NCBI GenBank assembly: GCA_010093705.1
Contig: MU006100.1
Coordinates: 1-64,000, forward strand
DNA length: 64,000 bases
Reading direction: 5' to 3'
From: Patellaria atrata CBS 101060
Taxonomy: Eukaryota
Shown: piece by piece, positions 1 to 39,894 of the stretch
Position numbering within the stretch: position 1 is the first letter of the stretch
How the letters are laid out: each line of letters opens with the position of its first letter
Notes under the pieces: generated by a model
The model's database searches: none
What the model was told of the DNA's origin: nothing
The model's input: the letters and a program-made list of their open reading frames with translations, nothing else
Translations under genes and position numbers: made by a program

Positions 1-115
1 TCCTGATACTCTCAGGTGCCGGATAAACTCGTGGTCTTCGGTCTTGATACTCTCAAGCACCGGGTTGGAATATTATGTCGCCTTTCCAAGGCCGTGGTGG
101 TAGAACTTAATCTAA

Positions 116-313
116 TGTGACGGCGTAGCGGTTGTAGAGAATCGAATTGGATTGCAACTAGTATAACCTAACTACAGTGTAAAGAGATTAAGTTAAGGAA
201 AGAAGAAGTTATAGTCGCGCGATCTACTAGTATCAAGCACGTAGCGGTAGAACCTCGGCGCGACTACTACTAATAAGGGAAAGTAGGAAATGATAATCTG
301 TGACATCGTCACA
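116..313 (-). mobile_element. 5' LTR (198 bp) of a minus-strand Ty3/gypsy element whose body lies left of the window
   Basis: Termini TGTGACG (116-122) and CGTCACA (307-313) are perfect inverted repeats. The adjacent PBS-position sequence 104-113 is the exact reverse complement of LTR-internal 185-194. Confidence 0.75.
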
Positions 314-10284: not shown

Positions 10285-11740
10285 TATTATATAAAAATAA
10301 TATAATAAATAAAGTTAAATTTAAAGCTATAATATTTAAATTTATAAATAAAATTAATAATAAAAATAATTATAAAGAATTTAAATATATAAAAGAAAAA
10401 TTATTTTTAAATATTTCTATTTTTTATAATTTAATTTAATAGTATTTATTTTATTTATTTTATTTATCTTTTAAATATATTAAATATATTAATTATTTTA
10501 CTCGCTTTACTTATTTTCTAAATATATTAAGTATATTAAGTATATTAATTATATTATATAATCTTTTATTTATAATAATTATTTTATTCTAATATTTTTA
10601 TATTATTATTTAATAGATAATATTATTTCTTTATCTTATAATTATAATAATATATTTTTTTATAACTTTTATTTTTTTATTATAAAGTTTAATTTTATTA
10701 ATTTTATTTTATTATAAACTTTCTTTAATCTTTTTCTTTTTAAAGATATTAAAAGTAAAAAGTTCTATAATTTACTATTATTATTATATATTAAAGATAA
10801 ACTTTTTTAGTTTTATAATATTTTTTTTCTATTTTATTTATTTTTCTCGCGGTTTTATCTATTATATTAATTTAAAAATTAATTATTATATTAAATATCA
10901 TTATATTATTTAAAAATATAATCTAATTTTATTAAAGAAAAAGTTTATTTATATAAATAATTTAATATTTTCTTTTTATTTATAATTAATTAAAATTAAA
11001 AATTAATAAAAAATTAATAAAAAATTCTTTAATTATAAATTTATTATTTTTAGAAATAATTTTATTTAATTAAGTTTTATTTTAATAAATTACTTATTTA
11101 TAAATCTATTTTAGTTAAGTAATTAAAGATTTTAAAATAAAAAATTAAAAAATAATAAACATTTTAAAATATCTTTATTTCTTCTTTTATTATATTTTTT
11201 TTTTAAATTAATTTAAGTTAAATTTCTTTATTTTTATAAACTTAGAAATTTTTTATTTTAGTAATAAAATTATTTAAAATTTTAATAATAATTTATAAAG
11301 TATTTAAATAATTTTAATATATTATTTATATATTTATAATTCTTTTATTTTATTTAATATTTCTATTAATTATTTATTTATTATAAATTTAAAATATATT
11401 TTATTTAAAAAATATCTTTTTTCTTAGATTTTATAAATTATATTTAAATTTTAATATTAATAGATATTAATTTTAAAAATAATATATAGAAAATTAAATA
11501 TATCTTTATTTCTTTAAATAGTTTAAATTTATAGTTAATTTTTTCTTTAATTTATTTAATTTTAAAATAATAAATTTTCTTATAATTTAGTTTTTTATTA
11601 AATTATTTTATTTTAAGATTTTTTTAAAATAAATAAACTTTATCTTCTTTTTTAAAGATTAATTTTAATAATTTATATTTATTATTATATTTTATAGTTT
11701 TTATTATTTAGAAAATTATATTTTATAATAATTAATTATA

Positions 11741-12038
11741 TAATTTATTTAATTTATTTAATTTATTTAATTTATTTAATTTATTTAATTTATTTAATTT
11801 ATTTAATTTATTTAATTTATTTAATTTATTTAATTNNNNNNNNNNNNNNNNNNNNNNNNNNNNNNNNNNNNNNNNNNNNNNNNNNNNNNNNNNNNNNNNN
11901 NNNNNNNNNNNNNNNNNNNNNNNNNNNNNNNNNNNTAATTTATTTAATTTATTTAATTTATTTAATTTATTTAATTTATTTAATTTATTTAATTTATTTA
12001 ATTTATTTAATTTATTTAATTTATTTAATTTATTTAAT
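11741..12038. repeat. 9-bp tandem repeat (AATTTATTT)n spanning a 100-N gap (11836-11935)
   Basis: Perfect 9-bp period on both sides of the gap. Confidence 0.95.
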
Positions 12039-14083
12039 CTTTAATATTATTTTTTATAAAATACTTTAAATTATTTTTAATTTATAATATATCTTTAATT
12101 TAAAACTATAATTTATTTATAAAAATTTAATCTTTATAATATTAAATTTTATATTATTATATATAAATTATATTATTTATAATAATTTTATTTAATTATT
12201 TTATTAGTAATTTTTATAATTATATAAATATTATTTTAAAAATCAATTTATTCTCTTAATTTAACTATTTATTTATAAATAAAAACTTATTAATAATTTA
12301 TAATTTATCTTTAAACTTTATATTAAAAATTTTTTAAATATTTAATAATTAATTAATTCTATCTTTAATATTATTATTATTATTAATAAGACTATTATTA
12401 TTAGCTTTATTAATATAAAATAGATTAACTTTATTAATTATTTAATAATTATTAATATTAAATTATATTTTATTTTTATTATTAAATTTATAAATTTTAA
12501 AAAATTAATAATAGAGTTTATTATAATTAAATTTAATACTTATTTTAATAATTTAATATATTATATTTATTTATAAAATTTGGATTTTATATTCTTATTT
12601 TATATATAATTATTATATTTTAAAATAATTTATTTTATTATATTTTTTACTTTTAAAAAATAGTAATTTCTTAAAATTCTTTTTAAAATTTTATTAATAT
12701 CTTAATAATTATATAATAATACTTTATAAATCTTTTTAATAAAAGTCTTTTATAATATTATTAATATATATATAATTTTATGATATAATTATATTTTTTA
12801 AACTATTTTTATTATTTTAAAATTATTACTTTTTTAGAATTTCTTTATTATATTATCTTTTTAATAAATATTATAAATTTATTATTCTCTTATAAATTTA
12901 ATTATTAATATTATAGTTAATTTTAATTAATTATAAATAATTATATTATTTTCTTTTTTTATAATATTATATTATATATTAGTTTTATTTTTTTTAAATA
13001 ATTAAATCTTTTATTTATAATATTAATTAATTTATTTTTAACTTTTAATTTATAAAATATTTTTATCTATTTTATTTATTTTTAATTAAATTCCTTTATT
13101 ATTAGAAAATTTATAAAATTCTTATACTTTAATTAAATATTTATAATAAATTTAAGTTTTTTAAAATATAATTTTTATTATTTAAATATATTAATAATTA
13201 TTAATAACTTTTTATTATATATATTATAGTTTAATTTTATTATTAATATAAAATATTATTAAATATTATATACTATTAAATATTATAAAATTTCTTAATA
13301 TAAATATTTTATTATAGAAAATATTAAATTAATTATTATTAAATAGAGAATCTATATAATTTATATTTATATTAAATTTAGAAATCTCTTTTAAATTCTT
13401 TTTATATATTTAAATATTATATTTAGTTTCTTTATAATTTCTATAATATTATATAGATAGTTAAACTATTTTATAATTATTATTATTTTTAGTCTTTTTT
13501 AATCGCTAAATATTATAAACGTTTTAATAATTATTTTCATTAATATTTTATTATATTAATATTTTATATTAATATTTTTCGTAAATATTAAATTTTATAT
13601 TAATATTTTTCGTAAATATTAAATTTTATAAACTATTTTACTCTTTATAATTTATCTTAAATTTTTAAAATTAAGAATAATAAATATCTATTTTTAATTA
13701 TAATATTCTTTAATTATTTTTAATTAATATATAATTTTAATTTATTATTTTTCTTTAATATAAATAAAATTAATAATATTATTAAACTTTTATTAAATTA
13801 TATATATCTTTTTTCTAAATTTATATAAATATATTTTTTAAATATTATATATTATTCTTATAATAATAAATAAATAAAACTAGATTATAATTTTAAACTT
13901 TTTTTTAATATTATTTTATAATTTTATATTTAATAATTTATAAATATAATTATTATATCTTTTTAAAATAATTTTTTAAATTTATTATACTTTTTAAATA
14001 TTTTAAATTCTTTTATATTCTTTTTAATATTTATCTTTCTAAATTATATTACTTTTATATTTTAAAATTTATTATTATAAATC

Positions 14084-17000
14084 TATTATAACGGAAGTCT
14101 ATATTTATCGAGATAGAACGAGATAAGTTTAGAAAAGCGTTTAACTTTTCACTTAACGTAGTTAATTATAAAGATAGGTTTAATAAAATAATAAAATATA
14201 TATAATAAAGATATTTTAAGTTAATAATATAATTTATTAACTTTTTAACTTCGGATAAAGCTTATAATAAGATAAGACGTATTATATAAAAATAATATAA
14301 TAAATAAAGTTAAGTATAAGACTATAATATTTAAATTTATAGATAAGATTAATAGTAAAAATAACTATAAAGAATCTAAATATATAAGAGAAAGATTATT
14401 TTTAAATATTTCTATTCTTTATAATTAATTTAATATACTCTTTCTACTTTAAGTGAGATTATTAAAATTATTACTTCTATTACTTTCTTTACTTTTATTC
14501 TTCTAAATAGGATTACTAAGATTATTACTTTTATTACTCCCTTTACTTCTATTCTTCTAAATAGGATTATTAGAATCACTACTTAGTCACCGTTTTAGTC
14601 ACGTGACTCGTGCACTCGTTATTCCGTCTCGATATCTTATACTACTATTCTACTAATAATACTATCTCTTTATTTTATAGCTATAATATTATCTCCCTTC
14701 TCTATAGCTTTTATCTCGAAAATACCGCGTTTAGTTATTCTTATTATAAAGTCTAGTTCTATTATTTCTATTATATTATAAGCTCTTCTTATCTCTTTCT
14801 TTTAAGATACTTAAAGTTAAGAGTTTTATAATTTATCGTCGTTATTATATTATTAAGATAAACTCTTTAAGCTTTTATATATCTTCTTTTTATTCTAATT
14901 ACCGTTCCTATAACCTTTCTTATCGTGTGGACTTAAAGACTAGTTATTATAGGGAATATCTAGTAATATACCGTAAGTGCGATCTTATAGTGATAAATAA
15001 GGATTTTATTTATACTTATAAACTTATATTCTTTCTCTATTCTTAACTTAAAGCTATTAAGAATAAGTAAGAGTTTCTTTAAACTTATATTTATCGTCTT
15101 TATAAATAACTCCGTTCTATTAAATCTTATTATAGTGAGCTCTTATCCCGGGAATATAATTCTATCGAGAAGTTAGAGATTTTAGAGTAAGAAATTAAAA
15201 AGTAATAAACTTTCTTATCTTTCTCTATATTTTCTTTATATCTTATATCGTTTTCTAGTTAATCTAATTTAGATTTCTCTACTCTTAAAAGTCTAGAATT
15301 TCTTAATTTTAGCGATAAAACTATTTAAGTTTCTAATTATAGTTTATTAAATACTTAAGTAGTTTTTATATATTATCTATATATTTATAACCTCTCTATT
15401 TTACTAAGTACTTATACTAATTATTTACTTATTATAAGTCTAAGATTTATTTTATCTCGTAAATATCTTCTTCTTCTAGTTTTATAGGTTATATTTAGAG
15501 TTTAGTATTAGTATATACTAATTCTAGAAGTAATATATAGAAAACTAGGTATATCTTTATTTCTTATAATAATTTTAACTTATAATTAACTTTTCCTTTA
15601 ATCTATTTAATTTTAAAAGGGCTAATTTTCTTATAGTTTAGTTTCTTATTAGGTTATTTTATTTTAAGATTTTTCTATAATAAGTAAACTTTATCTCTCT
15701 TTTTAAAGATTAATTCTAGTAATCTATATTAATTATTATACTTTATAGCTCTTATCATCTAGAAAGTTATATCTTATAATAGCTATTTATATAATTTCTT
15801 AATTTACTCGACTTTTAACACTACTTCTTATAAAATACTCTAAACTATTCTCGGCTCACGATATACCTTTAATTCGAAACTATAATTTATATAGAAGGGT
15901 AAAATCTTTATAATATCGGATTTCGCGCTATTATATATATATAAACTATACTATTAGTAGTAACTTTATCTAGTTATTTTATTAGTAATTTACGTAATTA
16001 CGTAAATATTATTCTAGAAATTAATTTATTCTTAAAGCGTTAATTAAATTAAAAGATATTATTATATATTTATATAATTTAAATCTTATTTTTATAGTTA
16101 TTTTCTATTCTTCGTCTTCTTTTATTTTAATTTAATAATAGCCTTCTTAAATATCGAGTTTTATAAACTATTTTACTCTTTATAATTTATCTTAAATTTC
16201 TAAGACTAAGGATAATAAATATCTATTTTTAATTATAATATTATTTAGCTATTTATAATTAATATATAATCTTAATTTACTATTCTTCTTTAATATAAAT
16301 AGAATTAGTGAAGCTATTAGACTTTTATTAAATTATATATATCTCTTTTCTAAGTTAATATAAATATATTCTTTAAATACTATATATTATTCTCGTGATA
16401 ATAGATAAATAGAATCGGGTCGTAATTTTATACTTTTCTTTAGTATTATTTTATAATTCTATATCTAGTGATTTAGAAGTATAGTCGCTATATTTTTCTT
16501 AAATAAATCTTTAAACTCGTTATACTCTTTAGATATTTTAGATTCTTTAAAAATCTTTTTAATATTTACTTTCTTAAGCTATATTACTTTTATATTTTTA
16601 AGTTTATTTCTATAAATCTTTATTATCTTATAATACGAAATATATTCTATAAATATATTAATGTTTATCTATTTAGTATATCTCGTTTATTTAACTTTAT
16701 TCTTTTATAAAATATTTCGATTAATTTAAGTACTTCTTATCTTTTAATTAATATCTAAATTTATTATTTATAACTAGTCTATTCTTAAAATTATATCTAT
16801 ATCTTCTAGATTAATTATAGAGATATATTTAATAGTTACCTTCTCTTATATATTAACTTTTATAAATATAGTCTTAAAGTTAATTAGACCTCGTCTATAT
16901 CCTATTCCTTTATTATTTTCTAATTATAGTAGGACTAAATTTTTAAATTTTATATAAAATATACTCTTCTTTTTTATCTATCGAGATAAGATAAATAAAT

Positions 17001-19714
17001 TAGTGGCGTTATTATTAACTAGCGTTATTATTCTTTTATTATATATAATAATATCTATTTAAAGCGTTTTATCGTTACTTCGTAAAGTTTTAAGGAATTT
17101 AAAAGTTATATTTCTCGATTATTCTTATTTCGAGTAACTTAATAGTTTTTTATATAATTATATACTAGATAATCGAGTTCTATATATTTAGTCTAGTATA
17201 ATCTATCGTGTTTATTATAATACGGGCCCTTATAATATTTTTTATATTCGAGCTTTCGATAATTATACTTAGTAATATATTTAAGTGTTTCTCTATTATT
17301 TTAAAGTACTTTAATCTTCTATAGAAATATTTTTTCTTTATAAAACTTTTTCTTTAAATCTTTATAATACTAATAATCCGTACTATATTTATAGTCTTTC
17401 TATATTATTACTATATATTCTATATAAATTAATATTTAATAGTATTATCTATATTTAAACTTATCTATATAATCGAAACTATTATACTTCCTATAATTAT
17501 TTACTAGTGATTTAAACTTTTAGTTTTTTTTAAGTTTTCTTATTTTATCTTTATAGATTTTATATCCTTTTATCTAGTATTCACTTTTAGGTAAATATAT
17601 ATATATAAAGTCTTAATCTTTAAACTTTATTATAACTCTCTACTATTTATAATATAAATAATTATTCTCTTTATATTATATTTATTAAAAGATTAAATAG
17701 TCTTCTATTTTTAGTATAAGATTTAACTATTATTTTTCACCGATCGTGTTAATATTAGATTTAAATTTAATTAGTTTCTAATTTTAGAGTTTTTATTTAA
17801 ACTATTATTATTATTTTATAATTTAATATATAAGGCTTAGTCTATTAAATATTTATACTTTAATTCTTTAATCTTAATTCTATATTAGATATTCTAATAT
17901 TATATATATATATATATTTCTATATACCTAATATTATTAGTTATCTAAATATTATCGGAGTATCTTCTTTTTTAACTAGTTTCCTACTATTAAAAATAGT
18001 GTCGATAATCTATTTACTTTTTTTTAATATAGTAGCGGCGTTTCTTTAATCTCTTTTTCTTCGAACGATAAAACTAGTAATAATAGTATTAAATATATAA
18101 CTCTAAGTTATATATATTAATTATATCGCGATAATAGTTATATCTTTTATAAATAGTCTCTTTTAAAATATCTTATCTCTTTATATTATAGATATATTTT
18201 ATTTATAAAATATTTTTTTCTTTTTAGATAAACTATTATTATTTCTTTAATTTCTTTTATTTTATCTATTATAATCGATTAAAATTTATTAAGTCTCTTT
18301 AATTTTATTTATTTATAATCTTTATTATCTTCTTTTTATACTTAATTATAATATTCTTCCGTTCTCTCTTTTTCTATTTATATTTATATAGCCTATTATT
18401 TATTTTAATTATTTTAATTATTATATCTTATATACTTATTAGTTTTTTATAATAAACCTATTTATCTTTTACTTCTTTTTTTAAATCTTAATAAAAGATA
18501 ATTATTAGTAATTTATTAGGCTAATTTAATATTAATATTACCTATTAAAATATAATTATATACTTTAAAGTTAACTCTTTTTATTTAAGTCTTTAAAACT
18601 TTCTTTTAACTCTTTATTATTTATCGATTTTCTTAAAGACGTTCTTAAATATTTCTTTAAACTTTAGAAACGACTTAAAAATCTTAATTATTTTATTCTT
18701 TTAGTATTCTTCGCTATTCTTAAAATAGTCTTATATAATAGATTTAAATTATTTTAAAGCGTCTTCTTTAAAGTATATTAATATATCGAGTATATATTTA
18801 TTATTATCTATTAACTTTATTCTTTTATAATAGATTCTTATTTAAATTAAGAATTCTTTTAACTTATCTCGTTTACTATTATATAGTACGGGTTCTTTAA
18901 CTTTCACGGTCTATTTCTATAATAATAATTATTATATAATAAGTTATTTAAGTTAATTCTTAAATTTTTAGATTATTTCTTTACTTTTAAATTTATTAAT
19001 ATATTTATATAACACTTAAATATATTTTTTATCTATCTTTATATTAGTTATAACTAATAATATTATATTTAAATCTATTATATATTTTCCTATTATATAA
19101 TAGTTATAATATTATAATAGAAGTCTATACTTATTAAGATAGAATTAAATAAGTTTAAAAACGTATCTAGCTTTTTATTTAATATAGTTAACTATAAAAG
19201 TAAATTTAATAAAATAATAGAATATATATAATAAAGATATTTTAAATTAATAATATAACTTATTAACTTCTTAATTTCGGGTAAAGCTTATAATAAGATA
19301 AAATATATTATATAGAAATAGTATAATAAATAAAGTTAAATATAAAACTATAATATCTAAATTTATAAATAAGATTAATAATAAGAATAATTATAAAGAA
19401 TCTAAATATATAAGGGAAAGATTATTTTTAAATATTTTTATTTTTTATAATTAATTTAATATACTTTTATTACTTTAAATAGAATTATTAAAATTATTAC
19501 TTTTATTACTTTCTTTACTTTTATTCTTCTAAATAAGATTATTAAAATTATTACTTTTATTACTCTCTTTATTTCTATTCTTCTTAGTGTAATTACTAGA
19601 ATTACTACTTAATTATCGTTTTAATTATATAACTTATATACTTATTATTCTATTCTAATATCTTATATTATTATTCTATTAATAATACTATCTCTTTATT
19701 TTATAATTATAATA
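14084..19714 (-). mobile_element. Family A copy 2: two 605-bp LTRs (14084-14688, 19110-19714), 5-bp TSD AAATC, internally deleted
   Basis: LTRs align end to end. AAATC occurs at 14079-14083 and 19715-19719. PPT (minus strand GAGAAGGGAGATAA) at 14689-14702. Internal sequence is collinear with copy 1 except for a ~1.67-kb deletion at ~16032, a smaller deletion near 17265 and a ~1-kb insertion. Confidence 0.92.
17755..18749. mobile_element. Unclassified ~1-kb RIP-decayed insertion within gag of copy 2
   Basis: Absent from copy 1, where the flanks are contiguous at ~5398. A more decayed partial copy lies at ~20110-20550. Confidence 0.7.
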
Positions 19715-21099
19715 AAATCTTTATTATTTTATAAATTTATTAATTTTTATTTATAATATTTATTTTATTATTATAATTTAAATTTTCTTTAAAATCTTTT
19801 AATTAAATTAAATAATTTTTTTTAATTAATATCTAAATTTATTATTTATAATTTATTTATTTATAAAATTATATCTTTATTTTTAAGATTAATTATAAAT
19901 TTTTAAGAATTATAAAAGTTATATTTTTTAATTATTTCTATTTTAAATAATTTAATAGTTTTTTATATAATAGAAAATTAAGTTTTATATATATAATTTG
20001 ATATAATTTATTATATTTATTATAATATAAATTTTTATAATATTTTTTATATTTTAATTCTTAATATTCTTATTTAATAATTATATTATAATTTAAATTA
20101 CTTTTGAATTTTATTATTAAAAATAATATTAATAATTTATTTATCTTTATTTAATATAATAATAATATATTTTTAATCTTTTTTTCTTTAAATAATAAGA
20201 CTAATAATAATAATATAAAATATAATTTTAAGTAATATATATTAATTATATTATAATAATAATTATATTTTTTATAAATAATTTCTTTTAAAATATTTTA
20301 CTTTTTTATATTATAAATATATTTTATTTATAAAATTTTTTTTCTTTTTAAATATATTATTATTATTTATTTTAACTTTTTTTATTTTATTTATTATAAT
20401 TAATTAAAATTTATTAAATCTTTTTAATTTTATTTATTTATAATTTTTATTATTTTCTTTTTATATTTAATTATAATATTTTTTTATTTTTTCTTTTTTT
20501 ATTTATATTTATATAATTTATTATTTATTTTAATTATTTTAATTATTATTATTATAATTATAAATTAAAAAATATATAAATATTAAATAAAGGAAAAAAG
20601 AAATATTATTTAAAAAAATTATAAATAATAATAAATAATAATAAATTATATAATTTAAAAATTTAAATATATAAATATTTTAATTATAAGAAATATTTAA
20701 ATAATTAAATAACTAAAATAATTAAAAAAAATTATATAACTTAAATATATAAATATATAAATATTTTAATTATAAAAAATAATTAAAATAATTAAATAAT
20801 TAAAATAATTAAAATATAAATATATTAAATTAATTATAAAGAATAAAAATAATTAAAATATAAATATATTAAATTAATTATAAAAAATAAAAATATTTAA
20901 AAATAATTTTTCTTTTATATATTTAAATTCTTTATAATTTAAATATTTTTCTTTTTATTTATTTATATAAATATTATTAATTATAATAAAATATATTATT
21001 ATAAAAAAAAATTATTATAATTTTTTATTTATAATAATATAATATAAAATATTATTAAATATTATATATTATTAAATATTATAAAATTTTTTAATAATT

Positions 21100-22450
21100 A
21101 TTATTTTTATTATAATATAAAATATTTTAATAATAATAAAATAATAAAATTAAATAAAAAAATTAAATAAAGTTTATATTTTAAACTTATAAGAAAAATT
21201 AATTTTAAAGTTAATAATATATTATTTTTATATATAATATATATTTATAAAAGCTTTAATAAAAATATAATTAAATTTTTATTTAAATTAATTATTAAAT
21301 TAATTATTAAAAGTTTATTATAATTAAAAAATAAATAATTATTTAATATATTTTTAATTTTAATTTATAAGAATTTATATTTTAATTATATAAAATAGTA
21401 AATATAATAGATAAACTATTAAATATATAAAATAAAAAGTAAATAAATAAGAATTAATTTAAAAAATTTATAATATATTTAAATAAATTAAAAATAATCT
21501 TTAATTAAATAAAATATTATTAAAAAAAATTTTAAAAATTTTAAAATAATTAATATATAATTTAAATTTATTAAAAAGATAAAAATTAAATATAATATTT
21601 ATAATAATAATATTTATAATTTCGATAAAATTAATTTTTAAAAAAATATAATTAAATTAATAAAAATTATTATAAATATAAAAAAATTTATAAAATTTAT
21701 AAAATTTAACTAAATAATTAAAAATAAATTATAATTATTTAAAATATTTATATTATAAAGTATATAATTTTATTCTTTATTATTTATAAAGACTATATTT
21801 ATATTTTTATATAATATAAAAAGATAAATATATTATATAATTAAAAGATTTTAATTTTTTAAAATAGTTAAATAAATAATATACTTAATTTTAAATAATT
21901 AAAATATTTTAATATATATATAAAGATATATATAATAAAGATATATTAATTATTTATTTTTAATAATTATAAAAATTATCTTAATTAGAATTTTAAGAAT
22001 TATTATTTAAAAAATAAAAATAAAAATCTTTATATATTTTCTTATTTATTATATATATTTTAATTCTTTAATATAATTTACTTTTTATTATTAAAGTATA
22101 AATACTTTTAATATATTTATAAAGAAGAATTATTATAAAATTTTTAAAATATTAAATTTTATCTTTATTAATATATAAATAATATTAAATTATTTTAAAA
22201 TATATTTATATATTTTATTAAAATCTTTATTATTATAAATATTATAATAATTAAAGATTTTAAATAATATATTTAAACTAAAATTATAATTAAAATTTAT
22301 ATAAAATTTTATTATTAAATTATTTATTATAATTTAATTTAAATTTATATAATTTATAAAAAAAACTAAATTAATAATATATAAAAAATATATTTATAAA
22401 TATTTATATTATTAAGTTTAAAAAGTAATTAATAATAATAATTAAAAGAA
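21100..22450 (+). mobile_element. Extremely decayed gypsy pol remnant
   Basis: ~21985-22010 (agaattttaagaattattattt) resembles the integrase RISRNYYF segment of copy 1. Little else is recognisable. Confidence 0.35.
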
Positions 22451-23379
22451 AAATATATAAATAAAAATAAATTTAATATAATAATATAATAAAATATAAT
22501 AAAATATTAATAAAAATAATTATTAAAGTATTTATTATATTTTAATAATTAAAGAAAATTTAAAATAATAATAATTATAAAATATTATAAAAATTATAAA
22601 AAAATTAAATATAATACTTAAATATATAAAAAAATTTTAAAAGAAACTTTTAAATTTAATATAAATATAAATTATATAGATTTTTTATTTAATAATAATT
22701 TATTTAATATTTTTTATAATAAATTATTTATATTAAGAAATTTTATAATATTTAATAATACTTTATATTATAATAAAAATATAAATTTTTATTAATTTTA
22801 TTTATAATTTTTTAATTTTTTAATTATATATATAATATTCTTTTTTTTTATAATTTATTATTATAATTTTAAAATTCTTTAAATAATATTTATTTTAAAA
22901 AAATAAAAGATAAAAAATTTTATTAAAAAATTTTAAAAATTTAATATATTTAAAAAATTAATAGAAAAATTTATTATTACTTTTAATATTATTAAATAAA
23001 TTTTCTTTTAACTTTTTAATTAAAAATTTAATTATAATTTAAATATATTAAATTTTTAATCTTTTTTAATAATAAAATTTTTTAATAAATTAAAAAGTTT
23101 TTATATTATTTTTTTTTAAATCTTTTTAAATTTTTTCGATAATATAATAATTTAAATAAATAAATTAATAATAATAAAATAGTTTATATTAATTAAAAAT
23201 AAAATAATTAATATATAATAAATTTAAAAGTTTTAAAGATTTTATTTAAAAAATTTATAGTTAAAATTTAAATAAAAAGTATTATATAATTAATATTTTA
23301 ATTTATTACTCTTTACTATATTATTTAAAATAATATATATAATACTATTTTTCTTAGAAAAAAAAGAATCTATAACTAT

Positions 23380-34159: not shown

Positions 34160-36193
34160 CTAGAACACCATACCATTCCCTGAACAGTCTGTTCTCGTGA
34201 TAGACGGTGGACTTCCCACGACAGAAGACCCTGAAATAGAAGAACTACGAGAACCCCTCCCTTCAGGGGAGTCTTGAGTGGAGTCTTGAGGGACATCGTA
34301 ATGAAGTGACATCCCTCGTCTGATGTTGAAGAGCCTGTCGGTGATTGTTGCCGCGTTTACTTTCGGTTTGGGTTCGAAAATAATGTCTTTAACCAAGGAC
34401 ACACATTCATCGATCCAGTTGTATTCTTCTCCCTGCCTATTTCTATTTTTCCGCAGATTTTCCAACCAGCTCGATACCCTTGGTTTGATGTTTCCGTTTT
34501 CATCATAAAATCGCATGTCATCACTCCCTTTCTTGCACCTTTTTCTCAGTTCAAGGACTAATTCGTGTCCTCCAACAGCGTACCCTACGACTTCACATAG
34601 GATAGCTCCGAATGACCACACGTCTCCAGTCCTCGCGTCTTCCTGATCCTCACCTCGCTCTTTAATCCAGGGGGCTGTAAACTTCCCACCATTACGTTTC
34701 GTTTTCGTTTTTGAAAGAGATGGTGTTAGTCTATGGGTTAGGTCGCATGTTGTTGTTGGTTCCGATATCTCCGTTGTACGTGATCGTCTGGGAATAGGAG
34801 AGAGCAGATCGAGCTGTGCTTTCGGGTTCGGCCTATCATCGGATACAGATCTATTTCCCTGCAGACGCCTTTTTGGTTTGATCTTAGAGAGACCGAAATC
34901 TGTGATCTTCCAGATTCCCACCGGGTATGTAACATCCTGCTCGATGTTGTTCGGGAAAAATACCAAAATGTTCTCGGGCTTGAGATCATTGTGTGTACAC
35001 GCAATTACATCCGTGGAGACCAGTCCAGAATGGAGAAACTTGAGAGCATCGGCTAGGTATCTACACTCTTGGATGACGTCTCCAGCCCACCAATGGTCTG
35101 AATTGTTCCTCCCATCTGGTGCCGCATCATTTCGTTTAGCTCTCGGCCCTTCTGTAAGTAAAGTTTCCAAGGAGAACGCTGCCAGATCATAGAATATGTG
35201 ATATGTTGGACCAACTTGGGAGAACTGTTCTTTAATCGTAGTGATATTGACCATGATTCGGGAATGTTGACTCAAGCATTCTCGGAGTGAGGTTAGATTT
35301 TCGAACTCTATTTGTTCCGCATTTCGCTCTATAACTCTTTTCACGGCCACCTTTCGCGGCTAGTGCTCGAATGATGTGATTAGTTTGTTTACTTTGATAA
35401 GATAAGAGGAACATACCTCAGTATTTTCAGTTTTAAAAGTCGAAGTTTCGTATTTCAGATGATGAGGAGCGATGACTACCTTATACACAGATCCTGTAGC
35501 ACCATCCCCGATTTTCTCTTCTGGTTCGATGTATGGAAATCGATAGTGTAACTCAGAGAGCACGTATGGCCTTGGCCTCTCTTGAATAACCAACGGACAA
35601 AACTGCCATTGATTTTTAAAGAATGAGTGTCCGTCATAGGGTCCTAGAAAGTCTTCTTTGACGAGTTCTTCTCTGGGGAATGGAAGATTCACATCGCGAC
35701 GATGGCGCTTAACGAAGATCGCCTCGAACTGATCCCATTCTTCAAACCTGATAAGGATAAGGATAGACAAAATTTTCAGATAATCTCCCATCTCGTTATT
35801 CAAATCCATCGATCGTGGATACCACAACTGGTTTCGGTAAAATCGATATCTATCCTGTTTGCACCAAAAGTCTGCTAGCTCGTGGGATAAAATAATGCTC
35901 TGATCTAAGCTTGATGTCGATGATCTAGCGAGTTGTTCAAGGTCCACGGCGATCCTCCTCTGTAATTCCTTTGACTCTCGAGGAGCTAAAGGAGGTATAC
36001 GAGCAATATTATTCGCCCATGTTGGAATCGTACCGTATCCATTCGCCCCGTTGTTGTTTTCGTTAAGCGGTAGAAGTTGCTCTCTTGATGAGCTTGACGA
36101 AGCTCTATCTCCTACCGACTGAGTATTCGAACTGGATTTACCCTGCGACGTACGTTTTCGACGACCACCGAAACAGGAAAGACAGAAAGACAT
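34160..36193 (-). CDS. Atypical fungal Ser/Thr protein kinase with N-terminal extension
   Basis: Exons 36193 (or 36217)-35417 and 35359-34160. IGDGATGSVYKV, KVAVK, EFENL, HNDLKPENIL, ITDFGLS, FTAPW, DVWSFGAIL. A further short 3' exon ending ~34037 is possible. Confidence 0.88.
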
Positions 36194-37862
36194 TATTGAG
36201 TTCGGCTCTTTGATCATTAGGGATTTGACATGGATTAATCCAATAATTTCACAGAAAACGAGTCGTCAGGAAGCTTGTGTAGAGACGACCTTTTCGAAAT
36301 AAAAGACAAGCATAGGTCTTTCACCACTATATCTTTAGCATTGTAAGTGTCAAGGAAACAATAACTGCCTCGTGGGGGTAGCAAACATAACCGCCCCGGG
36401 GCTTTTGATGCACCATCTACAGAAAATCGAGTTCGTACGGAGTACATAGCGAGAATCACGAAGTTCGACCAATGATCGCAAGATTTATGCACAAGGCTGC
36501 GGCAATCTGTCGCATCCAGCTGGAACAAGCGAGAGTGTGGGCGCCAACATATGAACACCAAAATCAGTTGGAGGGTCGCTTAAATATTCGATTTGCTTAG
36601 ATATATACACACCGGATGGCGCAGCTACCTCATCAGTCTAAAAGTCACACCGGAAAAGACCAAGCCGGTATGTCATTATTGTTTTACATTGGGGCAATAT
36701 ACATTCACTCACCCGTCAAATAGTCGCCTCGATCGTTCAGCCTTGTCATTCCATCAAATAATATCTCGCCAACCCTCGCTCAGATGCAAATCCAAGGCAA
36801 ACTTGCATAAGCACGATCAAATCTTTAGAGGCATAGGAAAAGCAATATGCGGCTCTGCAAAGTTCAAATAGCTGGTATAAATGATAGTGTCAGGAGTCTT
36901 TCTAAATCAGCCTTAGGTTTGCCGCAACTCTGCCTTGGAATATACTCTAAATAACCTTTAATTTGGCCCTTATGTCACGCTACGCCGTTCACATCGTTCT
37001 CCGGCCTAGGTTAAGCGGTTACATCACTAGAGCCCAACTAACCGCTTTCTTGGAGGATAGATTTCCTCGAGATCAATATCCAGGAGCAGCGACTAATCGA
37101 TTTGAAATAAAGGTACAACACGAACACCGTACGTGACTGACCGCAGTACTCTAATGGACATATTGAATACCGTAGGAAACAAACGATCAATGGGAATTCT
37201 ACGCTCCTGCAGAGATACCTGAGGTGAGTCTTCCCAGTCAAAACTAGATTCCCAGTGTTTCGGTCGCTGAAATAGTCACTCTCAGGAAGCCTATGAGTAT
37301 GTTAAAGATTATCTGGACTAAACTACTCTAAACTAAGTTCTCTAGACCACTAAAGAAGAAGAACGGCTGAGGCACTGTGACTTGCGTTGGCTGCCGGTCT
37401 AGTCATTGGCGCAGTGCTTGACTGGTAACTCTTATGAGTCGTCTTGGTAATTATTGCATGTACGAGCGATGTTTGGCCTTGTGAAGGCTACCGGCCGTAT
37501 TGTTTGGGCAAGTGGATCGGATTGCTCATTGCAAACTTGATCATCTGAACCGAATTGTCGGCTCTCGGGCTGGAAGTGGAACTCAATAGCACTCAACAAT
37601 ATGTTTTCATAGGTTGTGCGGAGCTTCGAAAATTGTGCGTGCTTCTAGACGAATGTTGCGCCCTCGAGGGTGGCAGCTCCACAGCCTTATCATACAGTAC
37701 AAGGCTACAATTGGTCCTATCGAAGTCATCTCACATGTGGCTGAGTGTTACGCATGCACTGCCCTCCGTCTGATAAGATGTAAAGCATCAAAACCCTTTT
37801 CGGGTCCTGTCCATATTTCCGTCCCACCGAGTTTCTGAAACCATATTTCTTTTCTCGCTAAC

Positions 37863-39894
37863 ATGAATGTAAATCTTCAGTATCAGGTGCATTCAAGCGA
37901 CATACTTACACCTGTGGGAAATCTATCCTTCGACGACGATGCAAAAGAATATCTCGACCGTATTCAAAAGCGTTCCCATGTTTTATTCAATGGCAAGACC
38001 AATTTTGATGTACGGTTAACGCGAATTCGATGCAAGAGTACAGAGATCATTCACCGCAGTGGAATTGCTGAATCTGAATCAGTAGAAGAGATTTCTTTTG
38101 ATAGACCATCGCTTTCCTTCATAAAGGATGAGTATGAATTAGACGAGCACTTGAAAAAATCAAGCGAGGATCTATATAGAGTGATGTGAAAATACCAGCT
38201 CTAATAATTAACAAATTGTACTGACTCAATTGCAGATCCTTCTCTCAAGAGTTTTCACTTGACCCATTATCATGTACAAAAGAAGCAATGATGGTGACGA
38301 TAAGAGACTGTAGAGTCCCACTTATGTTTTTCGATGTATTACTCAAATTTGGAAATCAGGAGCAAGTTTTCGATGAGTCCTCAGGATTCAGACAGGCTTG
38401 TCAACGCTCGGAAAGCTCATTCGGTAAGAAGCTTCAAGACCCTCTATCCACTAGGCCATCCAAACTCTTGATCGAAAATGAACCAACTGAATTTACCTTG
38501 GATAGAGATTTCCTATCAACTGATGTACGTTGAGCCAAATGGTCGACGTCTTGGGAGAGACCCTTGGTCATATCGTCAAACCGGACTCTACCATCGATAC
38601 CAGGCAAAAGGAAGCACCAATATATTTGTTCTATTGCATCCTAAATCGGACTCGGTCGTTCAACAACGAATCGAATCATGCTCACGAAGTCCAGAAGAGA
38701 AACAATCCCTTGCTGAACATCCGATGTACTTGCATTTGATCATTTTAAAATCTTACACTGCACATTGGCAAAGTTATATCGAGGACCTAGCAGATGGTCT
38801 AGCTAAGATTGTACGTCACAATTCTATACTCAAATTTCGGCCGCTAAAAGTTAAGTAGAGAAGTCGCATCTTAGTTCTGAATGTCCGAGAATCGCATTTC
38901 CAACCAGAAAAACTGCAAACCCTCCGTAATCTTGAGGACAAAATCTCATGTAAAGCATTGAGGTGTTTAAGAAGCACCGTGAAGCTTGTTCAAACACTAA
39001 AGGAGTTGAACGTAGGGCTCGAGGGAAACAAAGACTTGGAATTTGAGGAGAAGACCAAACAAGTTCATCAAGCGTTTCGATTGATCATTCACCGTCTCGA
39101 AGGCCATATAAATGCTGCCGAGATGCTAGCTGAAAGGATTCAGTCGACTATAGGTTTGGTGAGTTTTCACAGAGTTCAAAAGAAATCGTGCTCGGTGACT
39201 TGATAACCGAACGCGGAGAGGCCTTACTTCAAGTGTGACCCATTCCATTTTTTAGTAATCCTTTGATACTAACATACCCTTAGTTTAGAGATCTCCTTGA
39301 TCTTCAAAACCAAGCGGCGTCAGACAAACTGGACAACCACATGCTGAAATTGACCCGAGAAAGCGTCGACGATAACGCCACTGTCCGTGTGATCACATTC
39401 GTTACCTTAATATATCTCCCTGCGTCATTCATGGCCGTAAGCTTCAAACTCTATTTTCTGCTAATCTACTTTTAAAAATCTCCGCTTAGTTCAACTGTTT
39501 ATCATTTCGGGCAAGGGTCTTTCGGCTATCTTCACTTAGCTTGTTTATTTTATTGTCAAGATACGTGTTATTGGGCATTTCTCTTCTTTACATCATCTAA
39601 ACTGTACCTTCCATCGGCCAATTACTTATCAAGTTCTTTCCATCAATATTGATAATTACTTGTCTGTTATCCATAACATTCTCTAACACACCCCAGACAC
39701 TCCTAGGGATGAACCTCTTCGATTTCGATTCTGACGACAACGGTACTCTAAAAATCTCACCCTGGTTCTGGGTCTATATTGCTGCAACGTTGCCACTGAC
39801 TATCATGACGGTCGGCGGATGGTACCTCTTCAAAAGACGACATTCGCGGGAACGGAAGAATAAGGACGTGGAGGATTCGAGGAGGGAGGGATAG
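37863..39894 (+). CDS. Fungal CorA-like domain protein with two C-terminal TM helices and GMN motif
   Basis: Introns 38186-38235 (weak donor), 38424-38505, 38811-38858, 39159-39283, 39437-39696. Spliced product has FFDVLLKFG, DPWSYRQTGLYH, VRVITFVTLIYLPASFMA|TLLGMNLF and FWVYIAATLPLTIMTVGGW. The start is uncertain: a branch site and acceptor at 37858-37880 suggest an upstream exon. Confidence 0.82.

What the first reader, a model, noticed from the sequence alone, without database searches (positions are those of the whole stretch)
34160..39894. Head-to-head atypical kinase and CorA-like membrane protein: candidate fungal immunity / regulated cell death module
Seen: a minus-strand kinase and a plus-strand six-exon gene are divergently transcribed from a ~1.65-kb shared region. 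The second gene has a long soluble domain, a helical stalk and two TM helices with an intact GMN. The pair sits in the accessory-looking zone ~11 kb from a TE block. Known: GMN plus two TMs is the CorA pore signature; CorA-family proteins act as effectors in some bacterial type III CRISPR systems; fungal cell-death loci often pair an activating enzyme with a pore protein (Podospora het-Q gasdermin/protease); RIPK3-MLKL is a kinase-gated pore. Inference: the kinase phosphorylates and gates a repurposed CorA-like channel as a non-self-response effector rather than a housekeeping Mg2+ transporter of the Alr1/Mrs2 type.
Basis: partly seen in the sequence, partly recalled or inferred. Interest (0 to 1): 0.85.

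Follow-up and report, generated by a model that had tools for sequence, protein, structure and literature searches.

The report
Conserved fungal kinase and CorA-channel pair
A membrane-channel gene of the CorA magnesium-channel superfamily and an unusual protein kinase gene sit back-to-back in this fungus and remain next-door neighbours in six other distantly related fungi, which suggests that they work together, although their role is unknown.

Summary
The window comes from Patellaria atrata (Dothideomycetes). Both genes are real.

- **Kinase (minus strand):** two exons, 659 aa, with an invariant HND catalytic loop, an intact Lys and DFG, and a long activation-loop insert.
- **CorA-like gene (plus strand):** a fungal PF26616/CorA-fold protein.
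- **"Shared" 1.65-kb region:** it holds conserved 5' exons of the CorA-like gene, so the true intergenic gap is about 0.8 kb.
- **Linkage test:** both partners were recovered in 7 species, and in all 7 their GenBank accessions are consecutive on the same contig. One species also has adjacent locus tags.
- **Family placement:** the CorA-like protein is not a canonical CorA equivalog and shows no sequence match to Mrs2.
- **Distant second case:** one metagenome contig carries a remote HND kinase next to a remote CorA-like gene.
- **Immunity or cell-death role:** nothing tests it directly. The window has no NLR or HET gene, and I had no polymorphism or RNA data.

Best reading: a conserved, co-inherited kinase plus CorA-channel module. 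Direct gating by phosphorylation is inferred, not shown. I found no published description of the pair.

The parts
34160..35359 (-). Kinase exon 2 (stop codon included). It runs from the VAVK lysine to the C-terminus and holds HNDLKPEN, DFG, a ~75-aa activation-segment insert and DVWSFG.
   Evidence: It is an open frame of 399 aa. Pfam Pkinase gives E 2.9e-9. Orthologues are 41-52% identical.
35360..35416 (-). Kinase intron (57 nt, GTATGT...CTAAT...AG)
   Evidence: Read from the sequence, and the join is in frame. The metagenome relative L001 has a break at the same position.
35417..36193 (-). Kinase exon 1. It holds a Cys-rich N-terminus (MSFCLSC), a disordered Ser-rich stretch, a helical domain with a SAM-like core (residues ~135-200) and the Gly-rich loop.
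   Evidence: The AF2 model has pLDDT 79.8. SAM domains fill the top six structural matches, with Z of 5.1-6.5. Pfam finds nothing in this exon.
36194..36971 (.). Probable true divergent intergenic/promoter region (~0.78 kb)
   Evidence: It lies between the kinase ATG and the conserved upstream ATG of the CorA-like gene. No RNA data were available.
36972..37112 (+). Probable first exon of the CorA-like gene (MSRYAVHIVLRPRLSGYITRAQL...NRFEIK)
   Evidence: tblastn shows 55% identity (E 2e-12) to residues 1-47 of the Polyplosphaeria orthologue P0010, and E 1.5e-4 to P0018.
37176..37223 (+). Probable second exon (ETNDQWEFYAPAEIPE), followed by a strong GTGAGT donor
   Evidence: By eye it resembles 'REEQFTFWAPAIV' of P0018. 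It is in frame with the first exon across a 63-nt intron. Tentative.
37346..37396 (+). Possible third exon (TTKEEERLRHCDLRWLP). It carries a W..(Y)P motif also seen in the N-termini of P0008, P0016 and P0019.
   Evidence: An in-frame path exists, but its donor is weak (GTCTAG). The motif was compared by eye. Tentative.
37863..38185 (+). CorA-like exon 1 of the six-exon model. If the upstream exons are used, the acceptor would be at 37880/37881.
   Evidence: identical to GenBank model P0001.
38236..38423 (+). CorA-like exon 2 (…FFDVLLKFGNQEQVFDESSGF…)
   Evidence: 25-60% identity to the nine homologues compared; 42-60% for the eight Dothideomycetes ones.
38506..38810 (+). CorA-like exon 3 (YQLMYVEPNGR…WSYRQTGLYH…), the central beta-sheet of the cytosolic domain
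38859..39158 (+). CorA-like exon 4 (helical stalk)
39284..39436 (+). CorA-like exon 5, the end of the stalk plus TM1 (…VDDNATVRVITFVTLIYLPASFMA)
   Evidence: YLPAS is invariant across the 18 sequences of alignment A1.
39697..39894 (+). CorA-like exon 6 (stop codon included). It holds TLLGMN, an acidic loop, TM2 and a basic tail. The GenBank model lacks it.
   Evidence: tblastn identities to homologues are 34-54%, with E values of 1e-8 to 2e-18.
1..23000 (.). AT-rich, RIP-degraded block of repeated element copies. This is context, not part of the module.
   Evidence: GC is 3-29%. Fourteen direct-repeat families link 1.1-5.6 kb, 11.2-13.9 kb and 14-19.9 kb. The (CpA+TpG)/(ApC+GpT) ratio is 0.10 here against 1.15 in the genic part.

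Best explanation
The locus is a conserved two-gene module of Dothideomycetes.

**Gene 1** encodes a channel-like protein of the CorA superfamily, in the fungal PF26616 family. It has a large cytosolic alpha/beta domain, a long stalk helix, two TM helices and a GMN motif at the end of TM1.

**Gene 2**, transcribed divergently from a promoter region of about 0.8 kb, encodes a catalytically complete non-RD (HND) Ser/Thr kinase. The kinase has a SAM-like helical N-terminal domain. In several orthologues it also has an MGxxxS plus Cys N-terminus, which suggests lipid anchoring.

**Most likely mechanism.** The two proteins meet at a membrane. The kinase then phosphorylates the cytosolic domain of the CorA-like pentamer and changes its gating for divalent cations. 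This would be a conditional response rather than housekeeping Mg2+ uptake.

**Shown here:** the gene structures, the CorA fold and motifs, the kinase catalytic residues, and conserved adjacency in 7 species.

**Inferred:** co-regulation, physical contact, the direction of control (kinase to channel), the ion conducted and the biological role.
For: **Conserved adjacency**
- An exhaustive HMMER search with kinase exon 2 found orthologues at 41-52% identity.
- I looked up names for 20 of the 150 listed hits. Six come from species whose CorA-like orthologue had been found.
- In all six, and in the window's own species, the two GenBank accessions are consecutive and the contig lengths are equal:
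  - Patellaria: KAF2837144/45
  - Pleomassaria: KAF2708727/26
  - Polyplosphaeria: KAF2738922/21
  - Corynespora: PSN61810/11
  - Mytilinidion: KAF2809486/85
  - Plenodomus: KAI8933032/33, also locus tags NX059_009681/82
  - Zopfia: KAF2182450/49
- These species span Patellaria, Mytilinidion, Zopfia and four taxa that I recall as Pleosporales. Gene order in this class is heavily reshuffled, and conserved blocks are argued to be under selection (PMC3516569, section 9 and passages read).
- Pairwise identities of the two proteins co-vary (r = 0.79 over 21 species pairs). This fits co-inheritance.

**Second, distant instance**
- Metagenome contig L030 carries a remote CorA-like gene (A1-profile E 3e-10, STD in place of GMN). 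About 0.7 kb downstream lies a remote HND kinase with the same N-terminal region.

**CorA fold**
- The AF2 model of orthologue P0003 (pLDDT 79.5) matches full-length T. maritima CorA (Foldseek E 1e-10, about 400 aligned columns).
- PF01544 matches 16 of 18 family members.
- GMN is kept in all 7 linked orthologues.

**Kinase**
- The catalytic-loop HND, Pro and Asn, and the DFG motif, are invariant in 17 sequences; the VAIK-type Lys is kept in every sequence that covers that column.
- Four of 10 full-length orthologues start MGxxxS with a nearby Cys.
Against: - There is no direct evidence of co-expression, interaction or phosphorylation.
- Orientation in the other six species is unknown, because accession order alone does not give the strand.
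- I could not measure how often random neighbouring genes stay adjacent in these genomes. Passive retention of a tight divergent pair is therefore not excluded.
- Two metagenome contigs carry family-type kinases (L001, L002). Neither shows a CorA-like gene in the 2.2-2.7 kb of upstream flank available. In L001 the upstream neighbour is a different membrane-protein gene, and the kinase lacks its 5' part.
- None of the 27 long kinase relatives is fused to a CorA domain.
- For 5 species with a named kinase orthologue no partner of the other kind was recovered, and likewise for about 10 species with a CorA-like homologue. Those searches were not exhaustive.
- The window kinase starts MS, not MG, and has W in place of the E of the APE motif.
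Confidence: 0.5

Rival explanations
1. Passive synteny. The two genes are unrelated in function. They stay adjacent only because they share a short bidirectional promoter region, where breakpoints are harmful, or simply by descent.
For: - Only adjacency was shown, not function.
- Many microsyntenic blocks persist in Pleosporales (PMC3516569 section 9), and four of the seven species are, from recall, Pleosporales.
- No kinase-CorA fusion appears in 27 relatives.
- L001 and L002 show no CorA-like neighbour in the flank available.
Against: - Adjacency also holds in Patellaria, Mytilinidion and Zopfia. [quoted passage not shown]
- A very distant paralogous pair is also adjacent in L030. Descent of a single locus does not easily explain that.
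Confidence: 0.25
2. One reading: a non-self or regulated-cell-death module in which the kinase opens a repurposed CorA pore to kill or arrest the cell. It would be analogous to RIPK3-MLKL or to CorA effectors of type III CRISPR.
For: - The pair is conserved.
- Both proteins evolve fast, at 34-63% identity among the orthologues.
- The kinase is of the non-RD type. I recall this type as enriched in innate-immune kinases; no call tested that.
- One of 27 long relatives is kinase + NPHP3_N/NACHT + ankyrin, and 4 of 27 carry ankyrin repeats.
- SAM-family domains occur at fungal NLR N-termini (PMC9815663, passage read), and the kinase has a SAM-like core.
- A CorA-domain gene is one of two polymorphic candidates for vegetative incompatibility in Morchella importuna (PMC8940278, section 15 read).
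- The locus lies 11 kb from a RIP-degraded repeat block.
Against: - None of the 37 window ORFs I scanned has an NLR, HET, HeLo, gasdermin or protease domain.
- Housekeeping genes (EF3, eIF5B, La) lie close by.
- GMN is strictly kept in the linked orthologues. That points to selective ion conduction rather than a lytic pore.
- Matches to the PADLOC CRISPR-CorA models are marginal (E about 1e-3, TM region only).
- The pair is retained as single orthologues across species rather than as variable paralogues, which is not the usual pattern of allorecognition loci.
- The Morchella candidate has not been functionally validated.
Confidence: 0.15
3. Reverse direction of control. The CorA-like protein acts as the membrane sensor or scaffold, for a cation or a metabolite bound by its cytosolic domain. 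The lipid-anchored kinase acts as its signalling output, like a receptor with a receptor-like cytoplasmic kinase.
For: - The MGxxxS/Cys N-termini and the SAM-like interaction domain fit a kinase that docks at a membrane partner.
- From recall, CorA cytosolic domains are ligand and Mg2+ sensors in bacteria.
- In the wider family GMN is replaced in 6 of the 23 homologues that cover the motif: GTN in 3, GME in 1, and SSS or SSN in 2. L030 has STD. Conduction is therefore not always conserved, whereas YLPAS is.
Against: - The linked orthologues all keep GMN.
- No downstream kinase substrate is suggested by the locus.
- Nothing tested here gives the direction of control.
Confidence: 0.15
4. An ordinary housekeeping Mg2+ transporter of the Alr1/Mnr2/Mrs2 kind that happens to lie beside a kinase.
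For: - It has a CorA fold, GMN and two TM helices.
- The literature treats expanded fungal CorA genes as Mg2+ transporters (PMC3897900 and PMC10694956, passages read).
Against: - It scores 25-32 bits against the 200.75-bit cut-off of TIGR00383.
- The family profile matches only the TM1-GMN segment of T. maritima CorA (E 0.002) and no Mrs2 chain at E <= 1.
- Orthologues are only 40-63% identical.
- Every named homologue recovered is from Pezizomycotina, mostly Dothideomycetes.
- Conserved adjacency to the kinase is left unexplained.
Confidence: 0.05

Closest known systems
Thermotoga maritima / Methanocaldococcus jannaschii CorA Mg2+/Co2+ channels (PDB 4I0U, 3JCF, 8TMB, 4EV6)
   Same: - The overall fold matches: an N-terminal alpha/beta domain, a long stalk helix and two C-terminal TM helices. 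Foldseek gives E 1e-10 to 5e-8 over about 400 columns for the model of orthologue P0003.
- GMN sits at the end of TM1.
   Different: - Structural-alignment identity is about 11-12%, and the profile match covers only 45 positions.
- It fails the TIGR00383 cut-off.
- It is roughly 100-170 residues longer, with a fungal-specific PF26616 N-terminal region.
- TM1 reads YLPASF rather than the bacterial motif context.
- The TM1-TM2 loop is longer and acidic, and it is modelled as a beta-hairpin.
- A dedicated neighbouring kinase is present.
Fungal Alr1/Alr2/Mnr2 and mitochondrial Mrs2 (e.g. MoAlr2/MoMnr2 of Magnaporthe, PMC4945025; only the listing and the start of the abstract were seen)
   Same: Eukaryotic CorA-superfamily proteins with GMN and two TM helices.
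   Different: - No Mrs2 chain matched the family profile at E <= 1.
- The family is lineage-restricted and evolves fast.
- It carries PF26616.
- Membership was not tested by phylogeny or by complementation.
CorA-family effectors of type III CRISPR-Cas systems (PADLOC models PDLC01174 / PDLC01043; the biology is recalled, not taken from a call)
   Same: A CorA-fold membrane protein encoded beside the enzyme thought to control it, with an effector role rather than a housekeeping one.
   Different: - Only marginal TM-region hits were found (E 9e-4 to 6e-3 in 2 of 4 proteins tested).
- The locus is eukaryotic and spliced, with no CRISPR or nucleotide-signal enzymes.
- The partner is a protein kinase.
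RIPK3-MLKL necroptosis pair and fungal HeLo/MLKL-like executioners (review PMC12881547, passages read)
   Same: The concept is shared: a kinase paired with a membrane-permeabilising protein. The kinase here is non-RD, as I recall RIP kinases to be.
   Different: - The partner has a CorA fold, not a four-helix bundle.
- The kinase N-terminal domain looks SAM-like, not 4HB.
- No RHIM or amyloid motif was looked for or seen.
- That review does not mention CorA; the single 'cora' hit is the word 'corals'.
Morchella importuna mimpvic32 (CorA-domain candidate vegetative-incompatibility gene, PMC8940278)
   Same: An ascomycete protein with a PF01544 CorA domain that is implicated, as a candidate only, in non-self recognition.
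   Different: - It is 765-773 aa with 8 introns.
- Its sequence relationship to this family was not tested, because the sequence is not held here.
- Its co-candidate mimpvic33 has no recognised domain and is not a kinase.
- It has not been functionally validated (section 15 read).

Membership tests
CorA superfamily (Pfam PF01544, CorA fold) | A significant match to the PF01544 profile | tested here: met
   - Sixteen of 18 family members match at E <= 0.01, with a best E of 1e-13. Orthologue P0003 scores 44.9 bits against a cut-off of 27.
- The truncated GenBank model of the window protein scores 26.5 bits, just under the cut-off.
- The full six-exon product could not be submitted, because spliced sequences are not accepted.
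CorA superfamily (Pfam PF01544, CorA fold) | Two C-terminal TM helices with Gly-Met-Asn at the end of the first | tested here: met
   - The window protein reads ...IYLPASFMATLLGMN..., followed by WFWVYIAATLPLTIMTVGGWYLF.
- GMN is present in 17 of the 23 homologues that cover the motif and in all 7 kinase-linked orthologues.
CorA superfamily (Pfam PF01544, CorA fold) | Full-length structural similarity to solved CorA (cytosolic alpha/beta domain plus stalk plus TM hairpin) | tested here: met
   The AF2 model of orthologue P0003 (pLDDT 79.5) matches T. maritima CorA with Foldseek E 1.1e-10, probability 1.0, 395-414 aligned columns and target-normalised TM-scores of 0.56-0.61. An orthologue was tested, not the window protein itself.
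CorA superfamily (Pfam PF01544, CorA fold) | Homopentameric funnel and divalent-cation conduction | not tested
Canonical Mg2+/Co2+ transporter CorA (NCBIfam TIGR00383 equivalog) | A score at or above the curated cut-off of 200.75 bits | tested here: not met
   P0003, P0006 and P0010 score 32.5, 24.9 and 25.5 bits.
Alr1/Mnr2/Mrs2 eukaryotic Mg2+ transporters | Sequence relatedness to solved Mrs2 chains or a place in those clades | tested here: inconclusive
   The family profile matched only T. maritima CorA sequences (7 of 9 hits, E about 0.002) and no Mrs2 at E <= 1. No phylogeny with Alr1/Mnr2 was built, because those sequences are not held here.
Alr1/Mnr2/Mrs2 eukaryotic Mg2+ transporters | Complements Mg2+ uptake in alr1 or mrs2 mutants | not testable with these tools
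   This needs a bench experiment.
Fungal 'CorA-like transporter domain' family (Pfam PF26616) | Carries the PF26616 domain | tested here: met
   The precomputed Pfam column lists PF26616.1 for the window's own protein P0001 and for 21 of the 25 proteins. The local Pfam copy did not report it, so this rests on the precomputed annotation.
Type III CRISPR-associated CorA effectors | A match to the defence-associated CorA models, plus a CRISPR/nucleotide-signal gene context | tested here: not met
   - PADLOC CorA models gave E 9e-4 (P0003) and 5e-3 (P0006), restricted to the TM region. P0010 and P0001 gave no hit.
- The context is a spliced fungal locus with no such genes.
Eukaryotic protein kinase (active) | Pkinase profile match plus the catalytic Lys, the HxD Asp, the catalytic-loop Asn and DFG | tested here: met
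   - Pkinase scores 37.2 bits against a cut-off of 31.7.
- H, N, D, P, N of the catalytic loop and D, F, G are invariant in 17 sequences. The VAIK-type Lys is present, and the Gly-rich loop reads GDGATG.
- The family is non-RD, with HND invariant.
- Activity itself was not tested.
RIPK3-MLKL-type / HeLo executioner modules | A four-helix-bundle (MLKL/HeLo) executioner domain in either protein | tested here: inconclusive
   - The partner has a CorA fold.
- The kinase N-terminal model gave SAM domains as the six matches with Z >= 5 (Z 5.1-6.5), and no MLKL or HeLo entry appears among the 50 rows shown.
- Foldseek found nothing at E <= 0.001.
Fungal NLR / het incompatibility locus | A NACHT/NB-ARC, HET, HeLo, gasdermin or partner-protease gene at the locus | tested here: not met
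   Thirty-seven ORFs of at least 110 aa between 23 and 64 kb were scanned. None has such a domain (the weak AAA-type NACHT row belongs to EF3). Small or heavily spliced genes could be missed.
Fungal NLR / het incompatibility locus | Balanced or trans-species polymorphism | not testable with these tools
   No population data are held.

The most novel reading that the evidence does not exclude
The pair is a fungal innate-immunity or regulated-cell-death executioner of a new type. A lipid-anchored non-RD kinase, whose family is also used as an N-terminal module in NLR-like proteins, would phosphorylate and open a CorA-fold cation channel on detecting non-self or damage. This would be a eukaryotic counterpart both of kinase-gated MLKL and of the CorA effectors of bacterial type III CRISPR. 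The association would recur in distant paralogues such as the pair on L030.
Probability: 0.15. Interest if true: 0.9.

Novelty: new variant of a known kind. Interest (0 to 1): 0.62.

Why it matters
Filamentous ascomycetes carry many CorA-like genes. Genome papers list them as 'Mg2+ transporters' without testing that. The PF26616 accession appears in none of the papers I could search.

A kinase that has stayed next to one of these genes across a class of fungi with scrambled gene order gives the first concrete, testable handle on what this family does. It also points to a channel-plus-kinase signalling unit that has not been described in fungi.

If the module proves to be a death or defence effector, it would link fungal immunity to the CorA effectors of prokaryotic defence.

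On the practical side, the work corrects two GenBank gene models. The CorA-like model lacks its pore exon and probably its 5' exons, and the kinase model is truncated.

Tried and rejected
1. **An early wrong inference.** After the word-indexed search with kinase exon 2 (14 hits), I inferred that kinase orthologues were absent from the species that hold CorA-like orthologues. The exhaustive search and the name look-ups overturned this.
2. **Whole genome.** None is held for this window, so I could not count paralogues or test the background rate of synteny.
3. **RNA evidence.** No RNA holder was listed. The two runs laid (X1, X2) were DNA contigs with no joints. The splice sites, the 5' exons and co-expression therefore remain unverified.
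4. **Complex prediction.** I submitted CorA-like residues 1-400 with kinase residues 70-520. The result was no verdict (score 0.01), which is evidence neither way.
5. **Metagenome scans.**
   - The first scan, with P0055, found no relative.
   - The second, with alignment A2, gave 60 loci. Only 3 of them (L001, L002, L030) carry a kinase with this family's N-terminal region.
6. **Earlier findings of this scan.** By place, genome, words and sequence there was nothing relevant. The one note returned concerns a red-alga CorA pair and did not bear on this locus.
7. **Kinase N-terminal domain.**
   - Pfam found nothing.
   - The Atlas returned only unnamed Ascomycota clusters.
   - Foldseek against the PDB found nothing at E <= 0.001.
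   - Only the VIA-align wide search gave the SAM-like lead, at a middling Z.
8. **Fusion search.** No kinase-CorA fusion was found among 27 long relatives.
9. **Flanking ORFs of L030 and L001.** Pfam gave nothing useful.
10. **Exact 5' splicing of the CorA-like gene.** Ninety-seven in-frame paths with one intermediate exon and 2 direct in-frame paths exist, so the model upstream of 37863 cannot be fixed without RNA.
11. **Literature.** Five searches for a described fungal CorA-kinase pair or a CorA role in fungal cell death found none. They did turn up the Morchella candidate.
12. **Supplementary tables.** I did not open the supplements of PMC3516569 (its syntenic-block tables) or of PMC9815663. 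They could show whether this pair or this kinase domain was already listed.

Full report
**What is there**

Names attached to database proteins identical to the window's genes place the window in Patellaria atrata CBS 101060, a Dothideomycete.

The minus-strand gene is a kinase.
- It has two exons, 35417-36193 and 34160-35359, separated by a 57-nt intron with a GTATGT donor. Joined, they give a 659-aa protein.
- The GenBank model (P0027, 544 aa, flagged 'partial') is identical up to '...EVVGY'. It then skips sequence that is one continuous open frame in the window and that aligns with orthologues.

The plus-strand gene is the CorA-like protein.
- The deposited model (P0001, 435 aa) equals exons 1-5. 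It then runs through the donor at 39436 into the intron, so it lacks the GMN motif and the second TM helix.
- Exon 6 is real. Its translation (TLLGMNLFDFDSDDNGTLKISPWFWVYIAATLPLTIMTVGGWYLFKRRH...) aligns without gaps to the C-termini of homologues, at 34-54% identity by tblastn with E down to 2e-18.

**The 'shared region' is partly coding**

tblastn of homologues against 36200-40000 shows an upstream exon.
- Residues 1-47 of the Polyplosphaeria fusca orthologue (P0010) match window 36972-37112 at 55% identity (E 2e-12).
- The N-terminus of the Dothideomycetes sp. NU459 protein (P0018) matches the same stretch (E 1.5e-4).
- A second short exon (37176-37223, 'ETNDQWEFYAPAEIPE') resembles the next residues of P0018. 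It ends at a strong GTGAGT donor.
- In-frame paths from there into exon 1 exist, either direct or through 37346-37396.

The CorA-like gene therefore most probably starts at 36972. That leaves about 0.78 kb between the two start codons, not 1.65 kb. With no RNA data the exact 5' structure stays open.

**The CorA-like protein**
- The precomputed annotation lists PF26616 ('CorA-like transporter domain') for the window protein and for 21 of the 25 proteins. It lists PF01544 for 14 of 25.
- On the local Pfam copy, 16 of 18 aligned family members match PF01544 (best E 1e-13).
- An AlphaFold2 model of the Pleomassaria orthologue (pLDDT 79.5) shows an alpha/beta domain, a roughly 65-residue stalk helix and two TM helices. 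It matches full-length T. maritima and M. jannaschii CorA (Foldseek E 1e-10 to 5e-8, about 400 columns).
- By sequence the relationship is remote:
  - the family profile hits only the TM1-GMN segment of T. maritima CorA (E 0.002) and no Mrs2 chain;
  - three orthologues score 25-32 bits against the 200.75-bit cut-off of the CorA equivalog model;
  - the PADLOC CRISPR-CorA models give only marginal hits.
- GMN is present in 17 of the 23 homologues that cover the motif. It is GTN in 3, GME in 1 and absent in 2, whereas YLPAS in TM1 is invariant. All seven kinase-linked orthologues keep GMN.

**The kinase**
- Pfam Pkinase matches only the N-lobe through the catalytic loop (37.2 bits).
- In an alignment of 17 family members the catalytic-loop HND, Pro and Asn, and the DFG motif, are invariant, and the VAIK-type Lys is kept in every sequence that covers that column. 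A conserved insert of about 75 residues separates DFG from the (T)APE motif.
- It is thus a complete kinase of the non-RD type, with an unusual activation segment.
- An exhaustive search of 1.84 billion representatives returned only 756 proteins at E <= 1e-3 and 29 at E <= 1e-30. The family is therefore set well apart from mainstream kinases.
- The N-terminal 230 residues have no Pfam match and only unnamed Ascomycota look-alikes in the Atlas.
- An AF2 model (pLDDT 79.8) is helical from residue 58 to 195. Residues 135-200 superpose on SAM domains: the six matches with Z >= 5 (Z 5.1-6.5) are all SAM or SAM-like, at 2.2-3.5 A over 61-69 residues. At that Z this is a lead, not proof.
- Four of 10 full-length orthologues begin MGxxxS with a nearby Cys, and a fifth has the same motif at an internal Met of a 5'-open model. 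I recall this pattern as the N-myristoylation/S-acylation signature. The window protein begins MSFCLSC.

**Linkage, the decisive test**

My first reading, from the word-indexed search, was that kinase orthologues were missing from the species that hold CorA-like orthologues. That was wrong.

I looked up names for 20 of the 150 best hits of the exhaustive search. Kinase orthologues turned up in Pleomassaria siparia, Polyplosphaeria fusca, Corynespora cassiicola, Mytilinidion resinicola, Plenodomus lindquistii and Zopfia rhizophila. In each case the contig has exactly the same length as the contig of that species' CorA-like orthologue. The accessions of the CorA-like proteins are consecutive with those of the kinases in all six.

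| Species | Kinase | CorA-like |
|---|---|---|
| Pleomassaria | KAF2708727 | KAF2708726 |
| Polyplosphaeria | KAF2738922 | KAF2738921 |
| Corynespora | PSN61810 | PSN61811 |
| Mytilinidion | KAF2809486 | KAF2809485 |
| Plenodomus | KAI8933032 | KAI8933033 |
| Zopfia | KAF2182450 | KAF2182449 |

- In Plenodomus the locus tags are also adjacent (NX059_009681 and NX059_009682).
- The window calibrates the inference. Its two physically adjacent genes are KAF2837144 and KAF2837145.
- The pair is therefore adjacent in 7 of 7 species where both were recovered. No species gave both genes apart.
- Five further named kinase orthologues had no partner recovered: Aplosporella, Lophiostoma, Phaeosphaeriaceae sp., Lasiodiplodia and Paraconiothyrium. 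The same holds for about ten species with CorA-like homologues: Alternaria spp., Neocucurbitaria, Lentithecium, NU459, Delphinella, Bimuria, Phialocephala, Trichoglossum and Mollisia. Because the searches and name look-ups were not exhaustive, this says nothing about absence.
- Accession order does not reveal orientation.
- Pairwise identities of the two proteins co-vary across the seven species (r = 0.79 over 21 pairs). That fits co-inheritance, but any two orthologue sets would show some of it.
- Both proteins are only 34-63% identical between species, so they evolve fast.
- Ohm et al. (PMC3516569; abstract, passages and section 9 read) describe Dothideomycete gene order as reshuffled by inversions. 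They argue that blocks conserved across the class were selected for. Their blocks contain five or more genes, so their figures do not give a background rate for gene pairs.

**Beyond the orthologous locus**

Sixty metagenome loci were pulled out with kinase motifs. Only three encode kinases with this family's N-terminal region.
- **L030** has a remote CorA-like gene (A1-profile E 3e-10; TM1 '...FVFLPATFVS', STD in place of GMN). About 0.7 kb downstream on the same strand lies a remote HND kinase with DPG in place of DFG.
- **L001** is a 70%-identical relative of the P0055 clade. Its kinase homology starts abruptly at the SAM-like region, and the upstream 2.7 kb encodes a different membrane protein on the same strand.
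- **L002** shows no CorA-like gene in its 2.2 kb of upstream flank.

None of 27 long kinase relatives is fused to CorA. Four carry ankyrin repeats, and one of those is kinase + NPHP3_N (NACHT-type) + ankyrin, an NLR-like architecture.

**Surroundings**
- Positions 1-23000 hold at least three diverged copies of one element with an extreme RIP signature. GC falls to 2.7%, and the (CpA+TpG)/(ApC+GpT) ratio is 0.10 against 1.15 in the genic part.
- Between that block and the pair lie an NAD-binding protein, an MFS sugar transporter, a class-V aminotransferase and a GST.
- Beyond the pair lie a Ser/Thr-rich membrane protein, EF3, eIF5B, a La protein and an S4-domain protein.
- No NLR, HET, HeLo or gasdermin gene was seen among the 37 ORFs scanned.

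**How it most likely works**

Shown:
- two intact genes;
- a CorA fold with GMN;
- a complete non-RD kinase;
- conserved adjacency across a class with scrambled gene order;
- one distant second instance of the pairing.

Inferred:
- the divergent 0.8-kb region co-regulates the two genes;
- the kinase reaches the membrane through acylation;
- its SAM-like domain mediates docking or oligomerisation;
- it phosphorylates the large cytosolic domain that gates the pore in CorA proteins.

The reverse direction, with the CorA-like protein as sensor and the kinase as output, cannot be excluded. The immune or cell-death reading remains a minority possibility, supported only by indirect hints.

**Novelty**

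Five literature searches found no description of a fungal CorA-kinase pair. None of the searched papers mentions the accession PF26616.
- The 2025 review of fungal regulated cell death does not mention CorA (passages only).
- Genome papers note CorA expansions and assume Mg2+ transport (PMC3897900 and PMC10694956, passages read).
- The nearest lead is the CorA-domain candidate incompatibility gene of Morchella (PMC8940278, section 15 read).
- I did not open the supplementary tables of PMC3516569 or PMC9815663. They could already list this block or this kinase domain.

Noticed in passing
window 39437-39696 and 39697-39894: The GenBank model of the CorA-like gene (P0001, 435 aa) reads through the exon-5 donor and ends in the intron. 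It therefore lacks the GMN motif and TM2. The 260-nt intron splits the pore exactly between 'FMA' and 'TLLGMN'.
   Followed up: yes
window 34160-34620: The GenBank kinase model (P0027, 'partial', 544 aa) removes part of a continuous open frame after '...EVVGY'. The continuous reading aligns with the orthologues.
   Followed up: partly
window 10000-14000 and 20000-23000: The composition is extreme, with GC of 2.7-9% over several kb inside the RIP-degraded repeat block. Short AT-only tandem arrays occur there, for example 9-nt units at 11732-12038 and 20610-20908.
   Followed up: partly
window 1100-5600, 11200-13900, 14000-19900: Three diverged copies (about 63-90% identity) of the same multi-kb element. 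Repeats 5026 bp apart at 14084-14462 and 19110-19488 look like the ends of one element. No coding remnant was looked for.
   Followed up: no
L030:6360-11053: A metagenome contig carries a remote CorA-like gene (STD in place of GMN) followed in tandem by a remote HND kinase (DPG in place of DFG). Both conduction and catalysis may be altered in this distant pair.
   Followed up: partly
L001:2114-3644: The kinase relative appears to lack its 5' part. Homology begins inside the SAM-like region, directly after the end of an unrelated membrane-protein gene on the same strand. This could be a rearranged copy or a pseudogene.
   Followed up: partly
protein P0156: A relative of this kinase family forms the N-terminal module of an NLR-like protein (kinase + NPHP3_N/NACHT + winged helix + ankyrin repeats). 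Three other relatives carry ankyrin repeats.
   Followed up: partly
alignment (P0008, P0016, P0019, P0023, P0025, P0026): In the wider PF26616 family GMN is replaced by GTN, GME, SSS or SSN, while YLPAS in TM1 stays invariant. Not all members may be Mg2+-selective channels.
   Followed up: no
window 36972-37112: The conserved 47-residue N-terminal module (MS.YAV..V.GPRL.GYI....L..FL...FP...YPG....RF.I) of some CorA-like orthologues has no annotation. I did not search for it elsewhere.
   Followed up: no
window 40527-41252 (minus strand): The gene just downstream of the CorA-like gene has an open frame for a Ser/Thr/Pro-rich protein with one TM helix and no Pfam match. Whether it is also conserved next to the pair is unknown.
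   Followed up: no
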